In this document: in pieces, positions 1 to 6,119 of the stretch
Position numbering within the stretch: position 1 is the stretch's first letter
Layout: each line of letters starts with the position of its first letter
DNA from: a virus
IMG/VR virus record: IMGVR_UViG_3300038585_000197
Location: 1 to 6,119 of that record
Strand: one strand, 5' to 3'
Length of the DNA stretch: 6,119 nucleotides
Notes under the pieces: generated by a model
Seen by the model: the letters and a program-made list of their open reading frames with translations, nothing else
Database searches by the model: none
Told to the model about the DNA's origin: nothing
Made by a program: the position numbers and the translations under genes

Positions 1-99
1 TTCCAAGGAACGTGCCAATAGTTGTTGCCATACGATGAGAGACTGGGCGCAGTATTTGATCGATTAGAAATTGCATTACTTAACCTTTCTTTGTGCAAT
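1..99. repeat. Terminal direct repeat, copy 1 (assembly overlap of a circular genome)
   Basis: Positions 1-99 (ttccaaggaacgtgccaatag...ctttctttgtgcaat) match 6021-6119 base for base when read by eye. This implies a circular unit of 6,020 nt. The repeat carries a duplicated 5' fragment (76..1, - strand) of the small ORF annotated at 5923..6096. Confidence 0.95.
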
Positions 100-400
100 A
101 TGGAACATAGCGGCGAGAGTTACCGCCTTTGCTTTTGTTATTAGTTGGGCGTTGTTTACAGGTTTGTCGCGACAAAGGCTTTTCACGCGACAATACCCGC
201 TTTTGAGAGGGAGCAACGCCCTTGGTATGGTCAATTTCTTGCCCAACCAATGCTTTTTGATTTACTCTTCCGATTTTTTCGTATTCGGAAAAGGTGTCAA
301 TGAATGTCCGCCTTTTAACCGATCGCGCAATTCGCGCTTGGTTGACCGGTCTTGGGGCGGTTATTTGTGTTCTTTGACTTTTTCCTGGTCGGCGAGCCAT
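80..400 (-). CDS. Highly basic 106-aa protein; candidate DNA-binding/packaging protein (functional analogue of phiX174 J or gokushovirus VP8/ORF5)
   Basis: It is the only long --strand ORF filling the gap between the Rep gene and the next gene. It is rich in Arg/Lys (MARRPGKSQRTQ..., ...KQRPTNNKSKGGNSRRY...). An AAAGG motif lies about 10 nt upstream of the ATG. The start overlaps the Rep 3' end by 40 nt. Its stop (82..80) lies 3 nt before the ATG of the 57-aa ORF on the circle. I did not recognise any sequence family. Confidence 0.6.
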   Translation of the reverse strand: MARRPGKSQRTQITAPRPVNQARIARSVKRRTFIDTFSEYEKIGRVNQKALVGQEIDHTKGVAPSQKRVLSREKPLSRQTCKQRPTNNKSKGGNSRRYVPYCTKKG

Positions 401-1398: not shown

Positions 1399-1461
1399 TT
1401 TTTCCTTCTCTTTCGTCGTTAGGCGTGACGGCAGTTAGAATACGGTATCAAGAGATGTATT

Positions 1462-1504
1462 CAAACAGCCCCGAAATTTCTAGGAGAAATTTCGGGGCTG
1501 TTTG
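1462..1504. terminator. Perfect 20-bp stem / 3-nt loop hairpin, intrinsic-terminator-like; the strong T-tract is on the + strand side
   Basis: The sequence is caaacagccccgaaatttct-agg-agaaatttcggggctgtttg. The arms are exact reverse complements. On + it is followed by cTTTTTTa (1505-1512). On - it is followed only by gaatacatc, although the last stem bases supply UUUG. It lies 64 nt upstream of the Rep ATG in the - direction. Confidence 0.7.
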
Positions 1505-1604
1505 CTTTTTTAGCGTCTCACGTCGCTTTTTTTGCTTTGACCGTTGCAGCGCGCACATGGTGACCTATCGGGCTAACTGCTAAGACGGATCAAAGGTATA
1601 TTGA

Positions 1605-1620
1605 AGCCCCTTGCGGGGCT
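1605..1620. other. Short GC hairpin (6-bp stem, 4-nt loop)
   Basis: The sequence is agcccc-ttgc-ggggct. It shares the cggggctg arm sequence with the 1462-1504 hairpin. Confidence 0.4.
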
Positions 1621-1754
1621 GCTTTGTGAGCACACACGCACGCCGCTTCGCTGGGCGGCATGTATGCAGACGCTATTTTTTTGAGAATTCAGGAATGCGC
1701 TAGGCCGTTTGCGTTGTAACCGCGTACGATCCGGCTTTGCCCTATTCCTGAGAA

Positions 1755-1770
1755 GCGGCCTGCTGGCCGC
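1755..1770 (+). terminator. GC hairpin (6-bp stem, tetraloop) followed by a T-rich tail on the + strand
   Basis: The sequence is gcggcc-tgct-ggccgc, followed by gtttatttgtattctgttggttt on +. The tail in the - sense (ttctcagg) is poor. Confidence 0.35.
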
Positions 1771-1792
1771 GTTTATTTGTATTCTGTTGGTT

Positions 1793-1833
1793 TGGGGGGC
1801 GGTACCCACCTCGCTTCGCTCGCCCACCCCCCA
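1793..1833. other. Imperfect hairpin closed by a G6:C6 run
   Basis: tgggggg (1793-1799) pairs with cccccca (1827-1833). After a 1x1 mismatch, gg (1801-1802) pairs with cc (1824-1825). The loop is about 21 nt and contains ctcgcttcgctcg. Confidence 0.35.
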
Positions 1834-1936
1834 TTAATTGCGCTTGTGGCGCTTTTGATTTGCTTAGAGAGGTCTAGCTTATAATTTGTCGTCTGCCCTA
1901 TGCCTTGCGGCTAAAATCGGGCTTAGAAACGAATTA

Positions 1937-1955
1937 GGGCCGCTTAATGCGACCC
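1937..1955 (-). terminator. Imperfect hairpin spanning the stop codon of the last gene of the - strand gene string; candidate weak terminator
   Basis: On +, gggccgc-ttaat-gcgaccc forms 7 pairing positions with one C.A mismatch. In the - sense it is followed by taattcgtttctaagcccgatttt, which is moderately U-rich. The stop codon of the 60-aa ORF lies in the loop. Confidence 0.3.
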
Positions 1956-2126
1956 CATTGTTGGTTCTTTTTTTTCCTCATCATTTTGCCTTCGGAGTCG
2001 AGTGTGTTGCAAAATATTGTGCATGTGCTCAGAGAGTTGAGCATTTAGGAGTATCAATTGATTGAAGTCGAGGCGACAGATCGCGTCGACCGCGTCTGTC
2101 ATCGCTTTTTCTTTATTAATTGGCAT
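1944..2126 (-). CDS. Hypothetical 60-aa protein, apparently soluble with an acidic C-terminus
   Basis: The ORF track gives 1944..2168 (74 aa), but codon 2168..2166 is GTG. The in-frame ATG at 2126..2124 has SD AAGAGG about 9 nt upstream. That ATG overlaps the peptidase stop by 11 nt (aacaATGCCAATTAA). The product is MPINKEKAMTDAVDAICRLDFNQLILLNAQLSEHMHNILQHTRLRRQNDEEKKEPTMGSH. There is no TM segment and no lipobox. Confidence 0.5.
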   Translation of the reverse strand: MPINKEKAMTDAVDAICRLDFNQLILLNAQLSEHMHNILQHTRLRRQNDEEKKEPTMGSH

Positions 2127-2901
2127 TGTTGAGAACCTCTTTTGAAAATTCGGTATCTGTTGTTTCACCTGTTATTAGGTTGACCTTATCGCCACCCTTT
2201 ACTGCGTTATATGGCGTTACAGTTTCTTGCCACCCGTCATGAATGACGGTTGCACGTGAACGCCAGTCTCTTAACTCCCAATGGGCAGGGTCCCATTTGA
2301 ATGTATCATTTGGATCGCGAAGATCGGATTGAAAGAGGCTAGAAGTCTCATCACCGCCCCAGATTAATTTGTATCCATTTCGTTTTGCAATTCGCTTTCC
2401 TGTCATACCGACATAAAGCCAAAATTCTTTGGGAGCATCCCAATGATGATAAGCATGCACTACATCAATCGCGCAGCTACGTTGATGCGCGCCGTTTGTT
2501 GTTTTTGACAAACGTCGCTCAAACAATGTTTGCTGGAGATCAGGCGATCTATAGCAAGTATGGACGTACATAGGTATTCCGTCCTTTTTAAGTTGTCGAA
2601 ACAACTTTTCAGTAAATTCACGCAATTCTGGAGGACAACCAACCCAGTTAGCGCGAGAATGCTGTTTTAGCATGTAATTGCTAGAGAATGTATCTTGTGG
2701 AGATTTCAAGTATTGAAGTTGCTTTGCAACATCTTCAGGAAACCATTTTTGAAAGGGATCAACAGGATGTGGCTTAAAATTTTGCCACGCACGACGCATT
2801 AATTCGCTCGGCGTTGTTTTGATATACCCCTTATCAAGTAAGGTTTTATTTAATTTGGCGACTAGCGCCCTAATTAAAAGATTTTTTTCTGATTTTCTCA
2901 T
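2116..2901 (-). CDS. Zinc D,D-/L,D-peptidase of the VanY / Peptidase_M15 superfamily (endolysin-like cell-wall hydrolase)
   Basis: 261 aa. The Zn-ligand motif H-x6-D is present in GAHQRSCAIDVVH. A downstream WGGD is followed by DPAHWE (the D-x-x-H-[WF]-E motif). An upstream YRSPDLQQTLF segment matches the R-x-x-x-Q helix of M15_4/VanY-type enzymes. SD AAAGG lies 7 nt upstream of the ATG. About 85 N-terminal residues have no recognised domain and there is no obvious signal peptide. Confidence 0.85.
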   Translation of the reverse strand: MRKSEKNLLIRALVAKLNKTLLDKGYIKTTPSELMRRAWQNFKPHPVDPFQKWFPEDVAKQLQYLKSPQDTFSSNYMLKQHSRANWVGCPPELREFTEKLFRQLKKDGIPMYVHTCYRSPDLQQTLFERRLSKTTNGAHQRSCAIDVVHAYHHWDAPKEFWLYVGMTGKRIAKRNGYKLIWGGDETSSLFQSDLRDPNDTFKWDPAHWELRDWRSRATVIHDGWQETVTPYNAVKGGDKVNLITGETTDTEFSKEVLNNAN

Positions 2902-2968: not shown

Positions 2969-3469
2969 TTACACCGCTTCCGAGGTTGTTTCCTCGGTTG
3001 TTTCCTCAGTTGCCTGCGAATCTGCTTCGGATGTTTCCTCGGTCTCTTCCTCATCGTCAATCACCTCGGTTGTTGGGCGTTTTTGCATCATTTTATCAAA
3101 TTCTGCTTTTTGTGCTTTCATCGCCGTGCGATTTTGTAGCTCCAACCTTCGAACCGCCTGTTTAACAATCGCGTTAAAGCCATCATCAAGCGGTTTCATT
3201 TCCGCGTTTGTGAAAACCTCCCCTTCGCTTACACGAAGTCGAGTTTTCGGCGCATAAACTGCGCTTTCGACGGAAGTTGACAGGTGATAATGGTCATTCG
3301 GACCCTCCACCTTAAATTCGCTGCCATATCCTAGAAGAATCTTGTCCGCCCCTAAATGGAGATAAAGCGCGGCGGGCGCCGCCAAACGAATGTGACAATT
3401 TCCATACGCGGGAATTTTATTGCCTTTCGGCATATGTTCCCAGTCGAGGCTATACTTGATCTTTTGCAT
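2969..3469 (-). CDS. Hypothetical 166-aa protein with a strongly acidic Glu/Thr-rich C-terminal tail; possible internal scaffolding (VP3-like) or other structural protein
   Basis: The start overlaps the capsid gene stop as TAATG. SD GGAG lies 8 nt upstream. The C-terminus is EVIDDEEETEETSEADSQATEETTEETTSEAV. Position immediately after the capsid gene suggests a morphogenesis role. I recognised no family motif. Confidence 0.6.
   Translation of the reverse strand: MQKIKYSLDWEHMPKGNKIPAYGNCHIRLAAPAALYLHLGADKILLGYGSEFKVEGPNDHYHLSTSVESAVYAPKTRLRVSEGEVFTNAEMKPLDDGFNAIVKQAVRRLELQNRTAMKAQKAEFDKMMQKRPTTEVIDDEEETEETSEADSQATEETTEETTSEAV
2984..3007. repeat. 12-bp tandem duplication (2 exact copies) inside the acidic tail coding region
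   Basis: ggttgtttcctc occurs at 2984-2995 and again at 2996-3007, followed by the related agttgc. It encodes the repeated EETT units in the - sense. Confidence 0.85.
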
Positions 3470-5136
3470 TAGACTTGCTCCGCTTCCACCATGGCGAATT
3501 CTGAATTATCTTCATTCAGAACATCACCGAATTGAGTTATTCCCGTAATTGTCAGTTGTTGTTGAACACCAATGTTTACGATGTGATTAGCTGGCACGCT
3601 AAAGACATCTTGAGGGAATGGTGAAGGACAAAGCCAATGGTCTGATGTAAATACGGGATCAACAATGTCGGCTTGCCAAATTGCAGTACGCCCCGACGTA
3701 TTTGGAGTACCTGGGGTACTTTGGATAAATTCACCACCGAGCCGCGTAAACTCACGTTTCCATTTGGAATTCATAGGCTCATAGCCGAATGTCCCCGCAG
3801 GTGTGGAATGAGCCGTATCCAAACGACGGTTCAAAACCGTATCAACAGGTTCAGTTCGCTGAATGTCGCGCAATGCATTTGGAAGATCATCGACGTCCGT
3901 GACATATAGATACTCGTCAGCTTGCCGCTCGTAAAGACGCTCAGGCATTACCTCAACAGTTGCCATTATAATCCCGCCGTATTCAGCGGTCGGAACGTTG
4001 ACGCTAAGCGTCATTTGAGCGCGACCAGTGCTAACACTGTCATCTAGGTTTGCAGCGTCAGTTGCGTGGCGTTCCGTCATTCCAAACACAACCGTTTTGC
4101 TATCAAGCAACCAAGGACGGTGCATAAGCTCATTTGGAACAGTGAAGCCCTGCAATAATTCAGACATAACAACATCATCGTTGTTGAAGCCGCTGAAATT
4201 TGAACCTGCATACGCAGCGGCCCGTTTTGCAAATGCCTGAGTTGTGCGGGCCTTATCAATATCCATAAGCGACGTTGGAATAGTCACACCTGTCATTTCA
4301 GCATTGATATCAGGAACACCTGCGGCACCTTCTTTCACAACGGTATGTGCTTCGCCCGCTCCGACTGGAGTTGCCGGACCATCTGAGACCCATCCAGTAA
4401 ATGTAACGTGTCCTGCATCTGCCGTAGTCGCCACATTCGAATACGACGTTGAAGCACTTTCGTTACGGATGCCAAATCCACTTACAGGAATTTGACCCGC
4501 TGTTACATCCAGATCAAGAGAACCTACAACTAGCGCTTGTTCATAATCTGGTACAATTTCAGACATACGATTGCGTGGCCAAAAGGCTTGCTTCAATGTT
4601 CGTGCATTGACTGCACTTTCTGCCCAATAGTCGTATTTCGTCATTTTTGACGAATGCGCCGCTAGTCGAAAATTTTGAATATGATTATATGCATCGATAT
4701 AATCATGGTTCATTTCCTGACCTGCAACACCGTGTATTCCTAGCGCCTGATAAATTTCCCCCGCCAAATCTGCATTCACTGATCCCGAAGGCGTCACCTC
4801 AAATAATGTCGGCGCCGCTCTCGTTGTACTATTCAAAGCTGTAATGGATTTGCCATGGTATGCGTGCGTATACTCATCCAATCCGCTAAAATGAGGTAGA
4901 GATGGGCGCGGAACAAACCACACTTGGCCACGGCCAATTACGGCGTTTTCAAGAGGTTTAGGCATTTCTGCCAATTGTAAATCGAGCGCAATCCGGCCCG
5001 AACAACTATCCTTTCGGAATAGCGGAGCAACCGCAACAGGAATTACCACGCCAGCATCACCGGACGTTCGGGTCGAACAATAATCCGGTCGGCGTGTCAT
5101 TCCGTACTCAATAGGTCTTGCATCTTGTCTAATCAT
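3469..5136 (-). CDS. Microviridae major capsid protein (VP1 / phiX174 F family)
   Basis: 555 aa, the largest ORF, with a size typical of non-bullavirus microviruses. The N-terminal pattern GVVIPVAVAPL...D...(about 30 aa)...VWFVPRPSL resembles the conserved G-x-[LV]-[IV]-P-[IV] ... F-[FV]-V-P-x-R layout of VP1/F proteins. A strong SD AGGAG lies 8 nt upstream. Synteny with the pilot and Rep genes supports the call. Confidence 0.88.
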   Translation of the reverse strand: MIRQDARPIEYGMTRRPDYCSTRTSGDAGVVIPVAVAPLFRKDSCSGRIALDLQLAEMPKPLENAVIGRGQVWFVPRPSLPHFSGLDEYTHAYHGKSITALNSTTRAAPTLFEVTPSGSVNADLAGEIYQALGIHGVAGQEMNHDYIDAYNHIQNFRLAAHSSKMTKYDYWAESAVNARTLKQAFWPRNRMSEIVPDYEQALVVGSLDLDVTAGQIPVSGFGIRNESASTSYSNVATTADAGHVTFTGWVSDGPATPVGAGEAHTVVKEGAAGVPDINAEMTGVTIPTSLMDIDKARTTQAFAKRAAAYAGSNFSGFNNDDVVMSELLQGFTVPNELMHRPWLLDSKTVVFGMTERHATDAANLDDSVSTGRAQMTLSVNVPTAEYGGIIMATVEVMPERLYERQADEYLYVTDVDDLPNALRDIQRTEPVDTVLNRRLDTAHSTPAGTFGYEPMNSKWKREFTRLGGEFIQSTPGTPNTSGRTAIWQADIVDPVFTSDHWLCPSPFPQDVFSVPANHIVNIGVQQQLTITGITQFGDVLNEDNSEFAMVEAEQV

Positions 5137-5161
5137 TTCATTTTCTCCTGATTAGGTTAGG

Positions 5162-5923
5162 TTATTTCCACCAATTAAGGGTTCCTAATGGTGGAAGGGA
5201 AGTTTGTGGTAATGGCCGACGATCATAATAAGATCCATCAGGCGCGAGCTCACCATAATCTGGGGGGCGCTCTTCACTAAAGGTTAGAGCATTGCGCCAC
5301 CAGTTAGATATACGGTTGTCCTCATTCGCTTTTTCAAATTCAAGGATTTTCCGTATGGCGAAGCCTGTTATCATGCTATCGGCGTCAGGGCCTTCCGTTA
5401 CTTTAACAGTATTTCCTTGCTCACCTACATAGGTTTGCGTCGGGCTTTCGACCCTATCCGAAACAATTTCGCCATCCTCATTATAAGAAAGGCCAACTTG
5501 CGGCGCTCCAATAGCCCGCAACGCTGTTGTTATAATTGGGTCCACAGGAGGCACACCCTGAATAGGGTCTGCAGTTGGATATTCGTTTGGAATGAAGGCC
5601 GAACCCGCCGTACGACCACGACGAGCCTCATCAATTTGTATGCGCATTAAATCATTGCGCAATTCCAGGCTTTTTTGCTCGGCCGCCGAACGTCCAGTGA
5701 GAATGTCCTCAACCTTATCAAACGCATTTGTCATCGCGGTTTGCGTCATCAAAGGGGGTCTTTGCTGTTGAGCAAGACCCCCACGAATGGCTTCTAAAGG
5801 ATGAATGCCAGCTTCTTTCGCCTGGCGCACTGTATCGCTTATTCGGTTTTCATAGTTTTTTTGCTTTTGACGACCTTGGATAAGGCTTGCGCCAAAAGAT
5901 AGGAGAGGGCCTAGCCAGCTCAT
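5162..5923 (-). CDS. Microviridae minor capsid / DNA pilot protein (VP2 / H-like)
   Basis: 253 aa. The N-terminus MSWLGPLLSFGASLIQG... is Gly/Ala/Ser-rich and hydrophobic. It is followed by ...RQAKEAGIHPLEAIRGG, which matches the A-G-[LI]-N/H-P-[LI] motif I recall from VP2 proteins. It lies directly upstream of the capsid gene. SD GGAAGG lies 7 nt upstream. Its ATG overlaps the stop of the 57-aa ORF (TAATG). Confidence 0.78.
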   Translation of the reverse strand: MSWLGPLLSFGASLIQGRQKQKNYENRISDTVRQAKEAGIHPLEAIRGGLAQQQRPPLMTQTAMTNAFDKVEDILTGRSAAEQKSLELRNDLMRIQIDEARRGRTAGSAFIPNEYPTADPIQGVPPVDPIITTALRAIGAPQVGLSYNEDGEIVSDRVESPTQTYVGEQGNTVKVTEGPDADSMITGFAIRKILEFEKANEDNRISNWWRNALTFSEERPPDYGELAPDGSYYDRRPLPQTSLPPLGTLNWWK

Positions 5924-6096
5924 TAGAGAACCTTCCGTACAACAAGATCAATAAGAATGCCTACCGCAACAGGAATTGCGGCGACGATTGTTTGCACATC
6001 GTCAGAGGCATAACCAAGCGTTCCAAGGAACGTGCCAATAGTTGTTGCCATACGATGAGAGACTGGGCGCAGTATTTGATCGATTAGAAATTGCAT
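5923..6096 (-). CDS. Small 57-aa predicted membrane protein (absent from the ORF track); candidate holin-like or other membrane-active protein
   Basis: Hand translation gives MQFLIDQILRPVSHRMATTIGTFLGTLGYASDDVQTIVAAIPVAVGILIDLVVRKVL. The ATG is at 6096..6094, with AAAGG 7 nt upstream. An alternative internal ATG at 6051 would give 42 aa. An 18-residue hydrophobic stretch TIVAAIPVAVGILIDLVV is followed by RKVL. A second Gly-rich weakly hydrophobic stretch is TTIGTFLGTLGYA. The stop overlaps the pilot-gene ATG as TAATG. The 5' part lies in the terminal repeat. Confidence 0.55.
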   Translation of the reverse strand: MQFLIDQILRPVSHRMATTIGTFLGTLGYASDDVQTIVAAIPVAVGILIDLVVRKVL

Positions 6097-6119
6097 TACT
6101 TAACCTTTCTTTGTGCAAT
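6021..6119. repeat. Terminal direct repeat, copy 2 (identical to 1-99)
   Basis: It is an exact 99/99 match to the window start. Confidence 0.95.

What the first reader, a model, noticed from the sequence alone, without database searches (positions are those of the whole stretch)
5923..6096. Unlisted 57-aa transmembrane ORF coupled to the pilot gene: candidate holin-like partner of the peptidase or a new lysis/entry factor
The ORF falls below the ORF-track length cutoff and straddles the artificial contig junction, so it is easy to miss. It has a plausible SD and a TAATG overlap with the pilot gene. It begins 3 nt after the stop of the upstream basic ORF, which makes it a tight fit in a compact genome. 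It carries one clear hydrophobic helix (TIVAAIPVAVGILIDLVV) with a short basic C-terminus. A Gly-zipper-like segment (GTFLGTLG) precedes the helix. The peptidase lacks an export signal, so a small membrane protein is the obvious candidate to give it periplasmic access. Alternatively it could act like the phiX174 E amurin, or assist the pilot protein during DNA delivery. One caveat is that it is not adjacent to the peptidase gene, which weakens the holin interpretation.
Basis: partly seen in the sequence, partly recalled or inferred. Interest (0 to 1): 0.62.

Follow-up and report, generated by a model that had tools for sequence, protein, structure and literature searches.

The report
Candidate holin gene in a microvirus
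A tiny 57-residue membrane-protein gene just upstream of the DNA-pilot gene of this small single-stranded-DNA phage is real and strongly conserved, and it is the best candidate for the untested "hole-maker" (holin) that lets the phage's signal-less cell-wall peptidase reach the wall.

Summary
ORF 5923-6096 (minus strand, 57 aa) has an SD, starts 3 nt after the basic-protein gene, overlaps the pilot gene by TAATG and spans the 99-nt end duplication of a 6,020-nt circular microvirus of the Occultatumvirinae type.

It is a real gene. The family ("T1") has 149 clusters in a 1.8-billion-protein library. It sits in the same slot in 14 of 21 diverse relatives and in all 13 complete marine relatives. 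Its dN/dS is 0.08. AlphaFold predicts a helical hairpin at pLDDT 92, and R15 and D50 are almost invariant.

It is the only hydrophobic protein in the genome, and the M15 peptidase has no export signal. T1 members give sub-threshold hits to Pfam PF23987 (Phage_holin_10). In six of the other relatives, and in phages ICBM5 and Ebor (Gp1), an unrelated small membrane ORF ("T2") fills the same slot. The one genome without the peptidase has neither type.

Best reading: a holin-like partner of the endolysin (confidence about 0.55). This is untested, and a pilot-linked or entry role is not excluded. This scan reached the same reading before on other marine microviruses. The papers I read on these phages describe no holin.

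The parts
5923..6096 (-). T1 gene: 57-aa small membrane protein (MQFLIDQILRPVSHRMATTIGTFLGTLGYASDDVQTIVAAIPVAVGILIDLVVRKVL), the candidate holin
   Evidence: ORF. The family profile found 149 clusters. Local HMM E=9e-25. dN/dS 0.084. AF2 helical hairpin at pLDDT 92.
6104..6109 (-). Shine-Dalgarno-like GAAAGG, 7 nt upstream of the T1 ATG, inside the 3' end of the basic-protein gene
   Evidence: Read directly from the sequence.
6010..6051 (-). Codons 16-29: uncharged Gly/Ala/Ser/Thr-rich core of helix 1 (MATTIGTFLGTLGY), preceded by the near-invariant P11 and R15
   Evidence: Family column statistics: R15 97%, G17 84%, T18 83%, G28 93%. The core has mean KD 1.38, is 57% G/A/S/T and has no charges. 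It is too polar to count as a stand-alone TM helix.
5938..5994 (-). Codons 35-53: the transmembrane helix (QTIVAAIPVAVGILIDLVV), with the invariant D50, followed by the basic tail RK
   Evidence: KD19 of 2.23. D50 is conserved in 99% of 150 family members, and the C-terminal tail has a median net charge of +3.
5921..5925 (-). TAATG junction where the T1 stop overlaps the pilot start codon (translational coupling)
   Evidence: The same or a nearly identical junction (TAATG, ATGA, or a 0-4 nt spacer) is seen in 12 of 14 relatives examined.
5162..5923 (-). DNA pilot protein gene (VP2/H-like, 253 aa), downstream and coupled
   Evidence: The local iterated HMM links it to annotated pilot proteins of CRPss-154, Tortoise microvirus 46 and Ebor Gp3.
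2116..2901 (-). M15/VanY-type zinc peptidase (261 aa), the presumed endolysin and functional partner, with no export signal
   Evidence: PHROG 465 endolysin at 8.9e-14. Pfam VanY sub-threshold. H139-x6-D146 and D204-x2-H207-W motifs, and maximum KD19 of 0.54.
80..400 (-). Basic 106-aa protein gene whose stop codon lies 3 nt upstream of the T1 start on the circle
   Evidence: It is conserved upstream of T1 in relatives.
6021..6119 (.). 99-nt terminal duplication (identical to 1-99) that closes the 6,020-nt circle; the T1 ORF crosses its start

Best explanation
The 57-aa product (family 'T1') is a small inner-membrane protein that acts as the holin of a two-part holin-endolysin lysis system.

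**Expression (inferred).** T1 is made late, from the same polycistronic message as the structural genes, and its translation is coupled to that of the pilot gene.

**Membrane form (inferred).** It inserts as a helical hairpin. The basic N-terminus (about +2) and the basic C-tail (about +3) stay in the cytoplasm, and the acidic turn (about -2) faces the periplasm. Helix 2 (residues 35-53) is the true membrane anchor. Helix 1 has an uncharged Gly/Ala/Ser/Thr-rich core, like the weak first helix of class II holins and pinholins.

**Action (inferred).** Once enough protein has accumulated it oligomerises and permeabilises or depolarises the membrane. The near-invariant R15 and D50 are presumably involved. 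The cytoplasmic, signal-less M15 peptidase then reaches and cuts the peptidoglycan.

**Shown here:**
- the gene is real, conserved and under strong purifying selection;
- it is the only hydrophobic protein in the genome;
- the peptidase has no export signal;
- the fold is predicted with confidence as a hairpin;
- the family shows a weak family-level likeness to a Pfam holin family;
- a non-homologous small membrane protein replaces it in the same slot in some relatives.
For: 1. **Real, constrained gene.** The profile search found 149 clusters, nearly all 54-100 aa. Median pairwise dN/dS is 0.084, against 0.20 for the capsid and 0.52 for the pilot.
2. **Fixed slot.** T1 lies directly upstream of the pilot in 14 of 21 diverse Occultatumvirinae-type genomes and in 13 of 13 complete marine relatives. 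All of these also carry the peptidase.
3. **Sole membrane protein.** T1 is the only protein of the window with a TM-grade segment. The peptidase has maximum KD19 of 0.54.
4. **Holin family signal.** Pfam PF23987 Phage_holin_10 is hit by 41 of 150 family members, while the next family is hit by 4. The Rhizobium phage RHph_TM24 homologue scores 25.7-25.9 bits against a cut-off of 27, over profile positions 4-52. The type member, Pam3 gp28, lies immediately after the phage's lytic enzyme gp27.
5. **Holin-like charge and fold.** Family median charges are N-terminus +2, turn -2 and C-tail +3. AF2 gives a hairpin, H2-26 and H31-56, at pLDDT 92.
6. **Replacement in situ.** An unrelated ~40-aa single-TM ORF (T2) fills the slot in 6 of 21 genomes. 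T1 and T2 are mutually exclusive and are interspersed on the capsid tree. T2 is also present in ICBM5, which has an M15-like lysin, and as Gp1 in Ebor, whose different lysin Gp7 is experimentally active (PMC11980548).
7. **Joint absence.** CRPss-154, the only relative without the peptidase, has neither T1 nor T2.
Against: - No experiment exists for any member of the family.
- The window protein scores only 11.8-15.5 bits against PF23987, below the 27-bit cut-off. A direct profile comparison with Pam3 gp28 is not significant.
- I found no experimental basis for the 'holin' label of Pam3 gp28 itself.
- The gene is three genes away from the peptidase and sits inside the structural module, coupled to the pilot.
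- Helix 2 is only moderately hydrophobic by an insertion-energy sum (+4.6), and helix 1 is not a stand-alone TM helix, so the topology is uncertain.
- The co-loss with the peptidase rests on a single genome.
- According to earlier notes of this scan, which I did not check, gut gokushoviruses carry M15 peptidases with no holin-like gene. If so, a peptidase does not strictly imply a holin.
- Very strong purifying selection and near-invariant R15 and D50 would also fit a protein with a specific binding partner.
Confidence: 0.55

Rival explanations
1. T1 is a membrane partner of the DNA pilot protein rather than a lysis protein. It is made together with the pilot. It could chaperone or anchor the pilot's hydrophobic Gly-rich N-terminus at the inner membrane during assembly, or it could be packaged and help form the DNA-delivery conduit at entry.
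For: - The tight coupling to the pilot gene (TAATG, ATGA or a few nt) is conserved across the family.
- The gene lies inside the structural module, between the virion-internal basic protein and the pilot.
- dN/dS is very low and R15 and D50 are near-invariant, which suggests a specific interaction.
- The pilot starts with a hydrophobic Gly-rich segment.
Against: - The slot is filled by two unrelated proteins that swap repeatedly on the capsid tree, while the pilot stays homologous. That is unexpected for a specific structural partner.
- The pilot evolves fast (dN/dS 0.52) while T1 is nearly frozen.
- The T2 analogue, Ebor Gp1, was not detected in purified virions by LC-MS/MS (PMC11980548). This is weak evidence, because Gp1 has almost no usable tryptic peptides.
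- CRPss-154 has a pilot but no T1 or T2.
Confidence: 0.2
2. T1 acts alone on the host. It could be a single-gene lysis protein (an amurin that blocks a step of cell-wall synthesis, as phiX174 E blocks MraY). It could instead be a superinfection-exclusion or membrane-depolarising factor that is independent of the peptidase.
For: - It is a small membrane protein in a microvirus, the family in which single-gene lysis was discovered (PMC3394797).
- It is the only membrane protein in the genome.
- The family is almost confined to microvirus-sized contigs.
Against: - A conserved endolysin-type peptidase accompanies it in every complete genome examined, which makes an amurin redundant.
- It has no similarity to E. 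Its TM helix is C-terminal and the gene is not embedded in another gene.
- CRPss-154 lacks T1 together with the peptidase.
Confidence: 0.1
3. The ORF is a chance open frame or an annotation artefact of the contig junction.
For: - It is short and crosses the terminal duplication.
- No PHROG, and no Pfam family above its cut-off, matches it.
Against: - 149 homologous clusters were found.
- Its position is conserved in more than 25 genomes.
- dN/dS is 0.084.
- The AF2 model has pLDDT 92.
Confidence: 0.01

Closest known systems
Pfam PF23987 Phage_holin_10 (Pseudanabaena myophage Pam3 gp28 family)
   Same: Both are small proteins with an N-terminal helix ending in a Gly-rich ...LG.YGV motif, a short acidic or polar turn, one hydrophobic helix and a basic tail. 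Compare Pam3 gp28 with T1. 41 of 150 T1 members hit the model, with a best score of 25.9 bits.
   Different: - The window protein scores 11.8-15.5 bits, below the 27-bit cut-off.
- Pam3 gp28 lacks the R15-G-T motif and D50, is 88 aa long and lies next to its lysin.
- The profile comparison with gp28 is not significant.
- T1 is found on microvirus-sized contigs and is not adjacent to the peptidase.
Class II holins / pinholins, for example phage 21 S21-68 (from my own knowledge, not tested here)
   Same: Both are about 60-70 aa, with two helices and a predicted N-in/C-in arrangement. The first helix is weakly hydrophobic and rich in Gly/Ala/Ser/Thr, and the C-tail is basic.
   Different: - No sequence similarity was found.
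- Pinholins work with SAR endolysins, which carry their own membrane signal. The M15 peptidase here has none, so a pore large enough for a folded enzyme, or another route, would be needed.
- Helix 1 of T1 has only about 14 uncharged residues.
Ebor Gp1 and the 'T2' small membrane ORFs of Tainavirinae and Occultatumvirinae (PP754850 67-204; ICBM5 OM782324 359-484)
   Same: They occupy the same slot just upstream of the pilot module in sister microviruses that also carry a peptidoglycan hydrolase. They are small membrane proteins and are mutually exclusive with T1.
   Different: - They are unrelated in sequence (hhalign probability 21%).
- T2 has a single TM helix and a C-terminal P..H..(F/L)C motif.
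- Ebor Gp1 is published only as a 'membrane protein' with no function assigned (PMC11980548).
phiX174 lysis protein E (amurin)
   Same: It is a small membrane protein of a microvirus that is involved in host lysis.
   Different: - E has an N-terminal TM helix, is encoded inside gene D and needs no endolysin.
- T1 is a separate gene with a C-terminal TM helix, in a genome that has an endolysin.
- No similarity was found.

Membership tests
T1 family (microvirus small hairpin membrane protein, defined here) | Match to the family profile, with P11, R15-x-G-T, G28 and D50-L | tested here: met
   Local HMM E=9e-25. All motif residues except G17 (Ala in the window) are present.
T1 family (microvirus small hairpin membrane protein, defined here) | Gene located between the basic-protein gene and the pilot gene, closely coupled to the pilot | tested here: met
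Pfam PF23987 Phage_holin_10 | Score at or above the curated gathering cut-off (27 bits) | tested here: not met
   15.5 bits by hmmscan and 11.8 bits by the genome search. The best relative reaches 25.9 bits.
Pfam PF23987 Phage_holin_10 | Gene adjacent to the phage's lytic enzyme, as in Pam3 gp27/gp28 | tested here: not met
   Pam3 gp28 follows gp27 directly. In the window three genes separate T1 from the peptidase.
Holins (functional class) | Small protein with at least one transmembrane helix and a charged, mostly basic C-terminal tail | tested here: met
   57 aa, KD19 of 2.23 at residues 35-53, tail RK, family median tail charge +3.
Holins (functional class) | Encoded by a phage whose endolysin lacks its own export signal | tested here: met
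   The peptidase has maximum KD19 of 0.54 and no N-terminal hydrophobic segment.
Holins (functional class) | Expression is lethal, permeabilises the cytoplasmic membrane at a set time and releases the endolysin | not testable with these tools
   This needs inducible expression and membrane-potential or lysis assays.
Pinholin / class II holin | Two transmembrane helices, N-in/C-in, with a weakly hydrophobic first helix that can leave the membrane | tested here: inconclusive
   The hairpin is predicted at pLDDT 92. The charge pattern is +2/-2/+3, and the helix 1 core is 57% G/A/S/T. However, that core has only 14 uncharged residues and an unfavourable insertion-energy sum.
phiX174 E-type amurin | N-terminal TM helix, gene embedded in another gene, no endolysin in the genome | tested here: not met
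   The TM helix is C-terminal, the gene stands alone and a peptidase is present.

The most novel reading that the evidence does not exclude
Microviruses of the sister subfamilies Occultatumvirinae and Tainavirinae lyse their alphaproteobacterial hosts with a canonical holin-endolysin pair, not by single-gene lysis.

- The holin sits at a fixed 'cassette' slot that is translationally coupled to the pilot gene.
- Two unrelated holin types have been exchanged repeatedly at that slot. T1 is a two-helix hairpin with invariant Arg15 and Asp50. T2 has a single TM helix with a C-terminal Cys motif.
- T1 would be a new, microvirus-specific holin family, only remotely related to Phage_holin_10.
Probability: 0.45. 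Interest if true: 0.65.

Novelty: new variant of a known kind. Interest (0 to 1): 0.55.

Why it matters
How microviruses other than phiX174 lyse their hosts is still an open question. M15 peptidases were noticed in them in 2012 (PMC3394797). The first ssDNA-phage peptidoglycan hydrolase was shown to be active in 2025 (Ebor Gp7, PMC11980548). The papers I read on these phages propose no way for such enzymes to cross the membrane: searches found no holin described for the microviruses, and searches found no mention of a holin at all.

A conserved candidate holin, plus a second, interchangeable type, would complete the lysis system. It is directly testable because cultivable phage-host pairs carry each type:
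- T1: Rhizobium RHph_TM phages and Roseobacter CRPss-151.
- T2: Sulfitobacter ICBM5 and Rhodobacter Ebor.

It would also improve annotation. ICBM5's copy is unannotated, and the others are labelled 'hypothetical protein'.

Tried and rejected
**Searches that found nothing useful**
- Single-sequence searches of the 57-aa protein found only the protein itself, or three weak tblastn hits in Tortoise microviruses.
- PHROGs and NCBIfam gave no meaningful family for T1.
- Foldseek against BFVD gave no significant hit apart from family members. Several 'holin' entries appeared, but only at E>1.
- I tried to find true PF23987 or T1 members in bacterial genomes, to read their gene context. 401 genomes of the class of a prophage-bearing MAG gave no hit over the cut-off. 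The Roseobacter genome copy P0161 could not be located.
- The search for related loci failed with the broad T1 or VP1 alignments because no stretch was conserved enough. The pilot alone and the CRPss-154 capsid alone found nothing.
- I tried to enlarge the set of peptidase-less genomes. All 13 complete marine relatives that I retrieved carry both T1 and the peptidase. The co-occurrence test therefore rests on CRPss-154 alone.

**Ideas considered and rejected**
- T1 as a split-off N-terminal TM domain of the pilot: the pilot keeps its own hydrophobic Gly-rich N-terminus.
- T1 and T2 as divergent homologues: hhalign probability is 21%.
- Joint acquisition of the peptidase and T1 from a Pam3-like lysis cassette: Pam3 gp27 is unrelated to the window's peptidase.

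Full report
**What the window is.** Bases 1-99 repeat exactly at 6021-6119, so the contig is a 6,020-nt circle. All genes lie on the minus strand:
- Rep, 361-1398
- a basic 106-aa protein, 80-400
- the 57-aa ORF, 5923-6096
- the pilot protein, 5162-5923
- the major capsid protein, 3469-5136
- a scaffold-like protein with an acidic tail, 2969-3469
- an M15/VanY-type peptidase, 2116-2901
- a 74-aa ORF, 1944-2168

The capsid is 31-50% identical to those of Rhizobium, Roseobacter, tortoise and bat-faeces microviruses. These are the lineage published as 'Occultatumvirinae' (PMC9753089, PMC11499846).

**Checking the observation.**
- The ORF runs from ATG 6096-6094 to TAA 5925-5923.
- The basic gene stops at 6102-6100, 3 nt before the ATG.
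- GAAAGG lies at 6109-6104, 7 nt upstream of the ATG.
- The T1 stop overlaps the pilot start as TAATG.
- The ORF crosses the start of the terminal duplication.

Residues 35-53 have a Kyte-Doolittle 19-residue mean of 2.23. No other protein of the genome exceeds 1.2. The peptidase has no hydrophobic N-terminus (maximum 0.54) and carries the H-x6-D and D-x2-H-W metal and catalytic motifs.

One caveat applies. A simple sum of Hessa-type insertion energies, with scale values recalled from memory, gives +4.6 kcal/mol for the best 19-mer, because of P42 and D50. It gives at least +8 for the first helix. There is therefore one moderately hydrophobic TM helix, and the first helix is not a stand-alone TM helix.

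**Is it a real gene?** Yes.
- The three closest IMG/VR relatives (capsid identity 48-73%) carry a homologous 57-59-aa ORF in the same place.
- A 9-sequence profile, scored against 1.84 billion representative proteins, found 149 clusters at E<=1e-3. Nearly all are 54-100 aa long.
- The family logo shows P11 (86%), R15 (97%), G17, T18, G21, L24, G28 (93%), G46 and D50 (99%).
- Median pairwise Nei-Gojobori dN/dS over 397 pairs is 0.084. The same pipeline gives 0.20 for the capsid and 0.52 for the pilot.
- AlphaFold2 predicts two antiparallel helices (2-26 and 31-56). Mean pLDDT is 81 with nine sequences and 92 with 150.

**Genomic context across relatives.** I built local HMMs for each gene and scanned 21 diverse genomes: the window, IMG/VR contigs, assemblies and GenBank phages.
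- The family, which I call T1, is present in 14 of them. It always lies between the basic gene and the pilot gene.
- Its stop is usually within 0-4 nt of, or overlapping, the next start.
- GenBank already lists these homologues as 'hypothetical protein'. Examples are CRPss-151 1434-1619, RHph_TM24 1881-2126 and RHEph17 4765-4968.
- All 13 complete marine relatives with terminal repeats, from a further scan, carry both T1 and the peptidase.
- Members returned with contig data sit on microvirus-sized contigs or concatemers. One copy comes from a Roseobacter genome, and I could not retrieve its context.

**A second, unrelated occupant of the same slot.** Seven of the 21 genomes lack T1.
- In six of them the slot holds a ~40-aa ORF with a single TM helix and a C-terminal P..H..(F/L)C motif. 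I call this T2.
- T1 and T2 are mutually exclusive. They are not detectably related (hhalign probability 21%).
- They are interspersed on the capsid tree. For example, L008 (T2) is nested among T1 genomes next to the window.
- T2 also occurs in the sister subfamily. An unannotated 41-aa ORF of ICBM5 (OM782324 359-484) ends at the pilot start and matches the T2 HMM at E=6e-10.
- Ebor Gp1 matches at E=1.7e-7. It is published only as a 45-aa 'membrane protein' and was not detected in virions by LC-MS/MS (PMC11980548).
- Ebor's lysin Gp7 is experimentally active and is not an M15 peptidase. The small-membrane-protein slot therefore accompanies different lysin types.
- The seventh genome, CRPss-154, is the only one without a peptidase. 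It has neither T1 nor T2.

**Comparison with known families.**
- The window protein alone matches no PHROG, no NCBIfam family and no Pfam family above its cut-off.
- When all 150 family members were scanned, Pfam PF23987 (Phage_holin_10, Pam3 gp28 family) was hit by 41. The next family was hit by 4.
- Scores are 11.8-15.5 bits for the window, 16-22 bits for several relatives and 25.7-25.9 bits for RHph_TM24. The last covers nearly the whole 52-position model. The cut-off is 27 bits.
- In Pam3, gp28 (annotated 'holin') follows the 'lytic enzyme' gp27 directly. Its sequence shows the same layout of helix, Gly-rich ...LGTYGV, polar turn, hydrophobic helix and RRK tail.
- It lacks the R15 and D50 equivalents, and a direct profile comparison is not significant.
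- I found no experimental work on gp28.
- Membership in PF23987 is therefore not established. What I can state is a family-level remote likeness and a holin-like architecture.

**Mechanism proposed.** Family median charges are +2 for the N-terminus, -2 for the turn and +3 for the C-tail. This fits an N-in/C-in hairpin under the positive-inside rule. The helix 1 core is uncharged and 57% Gly/Ala/Ser/Thr, which recalls the weak first helix of class II holins and pinholins. That comparison comes from my own knowledge and was not tested.

I infer that T1 accumulates in the inner membrane late in infection. It then permeabilises the membrane, and the cytoplasmic M15 peptidase reaches the wall. Expression timing, topology, oligomerisation and the roles of R15 and D50 are all inferred.

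**Rivals.**
- A pilot-linked assembly or entry role fits the conserved coupling and the strong constraint. It fits poorly with the repeated T1/T2 exchange beside a homologous pilot, and with CRPss-154 having a pilot but no small membrane gene.
- An amurin or exclusion role is made less likely by the constant presence of an endolysin.
- A chance ORF is excluded.

**Literature and earlier notes.**
- Roux et al. 2012 noted M15 peptidases in microviruses and the contrast with holin-endolysin systems, but reported no microviral holin.
- Zucker et al. 2022 and Zhang et al. 2024 do not mention a holin or a membrane protein.
- The Ebor paper lists Gp1 as a membrane protein without a function.
- Earlier notes of this scan (e1-3259625 and e1-3270900) reached the same 'candidate holin, closest PF23987' reading on other marine microviruses. 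Note e1-3292244, on this genome's peptidase, mentions a holin partner. I had reached PF23987 independently. These notes are not independent evidence.

**Verdict.** The holin-like interpretation is the best supported reading but remains untested (confidence about 0.55). The gene belongs to a conserved, microvirus-specific family with a holin-like architecture, and it is interchangeable in situ with a second small membrane-protein family. I class it as a new variant of a known kind. Interest is moderate, because it makes the open question of microvirus lysis directly testable in cultivable phage-host systems.

Noticed in passing
L008 1383-1511; L011 ~5027-5149; L017 5030-5245; L018 5113-5247; L020 ~4706-4834; L021 ~4915-5091; L025 ~5760-5920; L107 (ICBM5) 359-484; L109 (Ebor) 67-204: A second family of ~40-45-aa single-TM ORFs ('T2'), with a conserved C-terminal P..H..(A/L/F)(F/L/I)C motif, occupies the slot upstream of the pilot gene in genomes that lack T1. 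It includes Ebor Gp1 and an unannotated ORF of ICBM5. The conserved C-terminal Cys is unexplained.
   Followed up: partly
L017 5242-5505; L025 ~5930-6180; L109 (Ebor Gp2) 206-460: In some T2 genomes a conserved ~85-aa soluble ORF sits between T2 and the pilot gene. By tblastn it is 46% identical between Tortoise microvirus 38 and Ebor Gp2. Its function is unknown.
   Followed up: partly
window 1944-2168 (-): A 74-aa soluble ORF immediately downstream of, and overlapping the end of, the peptidase gene is conserved in the close clade (local HMM E of 1e-24 to 1e-37 in L001-L008 and L010). It has no family match. It may be a further lysis-module gene.
   Followed up: partly
L012 (Roseobacter phage CRPss-154, PP558217): This is the only relative without an M15 peptidase. 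It also lacks T1 and T2, and it carries an HNH endonuclease between Rep and the pilot. The 191-aa ORF at the peptidase position has no Pfam or PHROG match. How this phage lyses its host is open.
   Followed up: partly
L004 1385-1597; L023 6975-7470: Some T1 genomes carry extra small ORFs around T1. L004 has a 70-aa ORF between T1 and the pilot, and L023 has three 54-56-aa ORFs upstream of T1. I did not analyse them.
   Followed up: no
L025 (Pseudomonadota MAG contig JAZKCV010000022, 1-8707): A related microvirus (capsid 49% identical) is integrated at the end of a 75-kb bacterial contig, next to host housekeeping-like ORFs. This is evidence that the clade forms prophages. The prophage runs off the contig end.
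   Followed up: no
window 5162-5923 (-) and homologues: The pilot gene evolves much faster (median dN/dS 0.52) than the capsid gene (0.20) or T1 (0.084), by the same estimate.
   Followed up: no
window 1399-1943: A long non-coding stretch of about 545 nt lies between the 74-aa ORF and Rep. I did not examine it.
   Followed up: no
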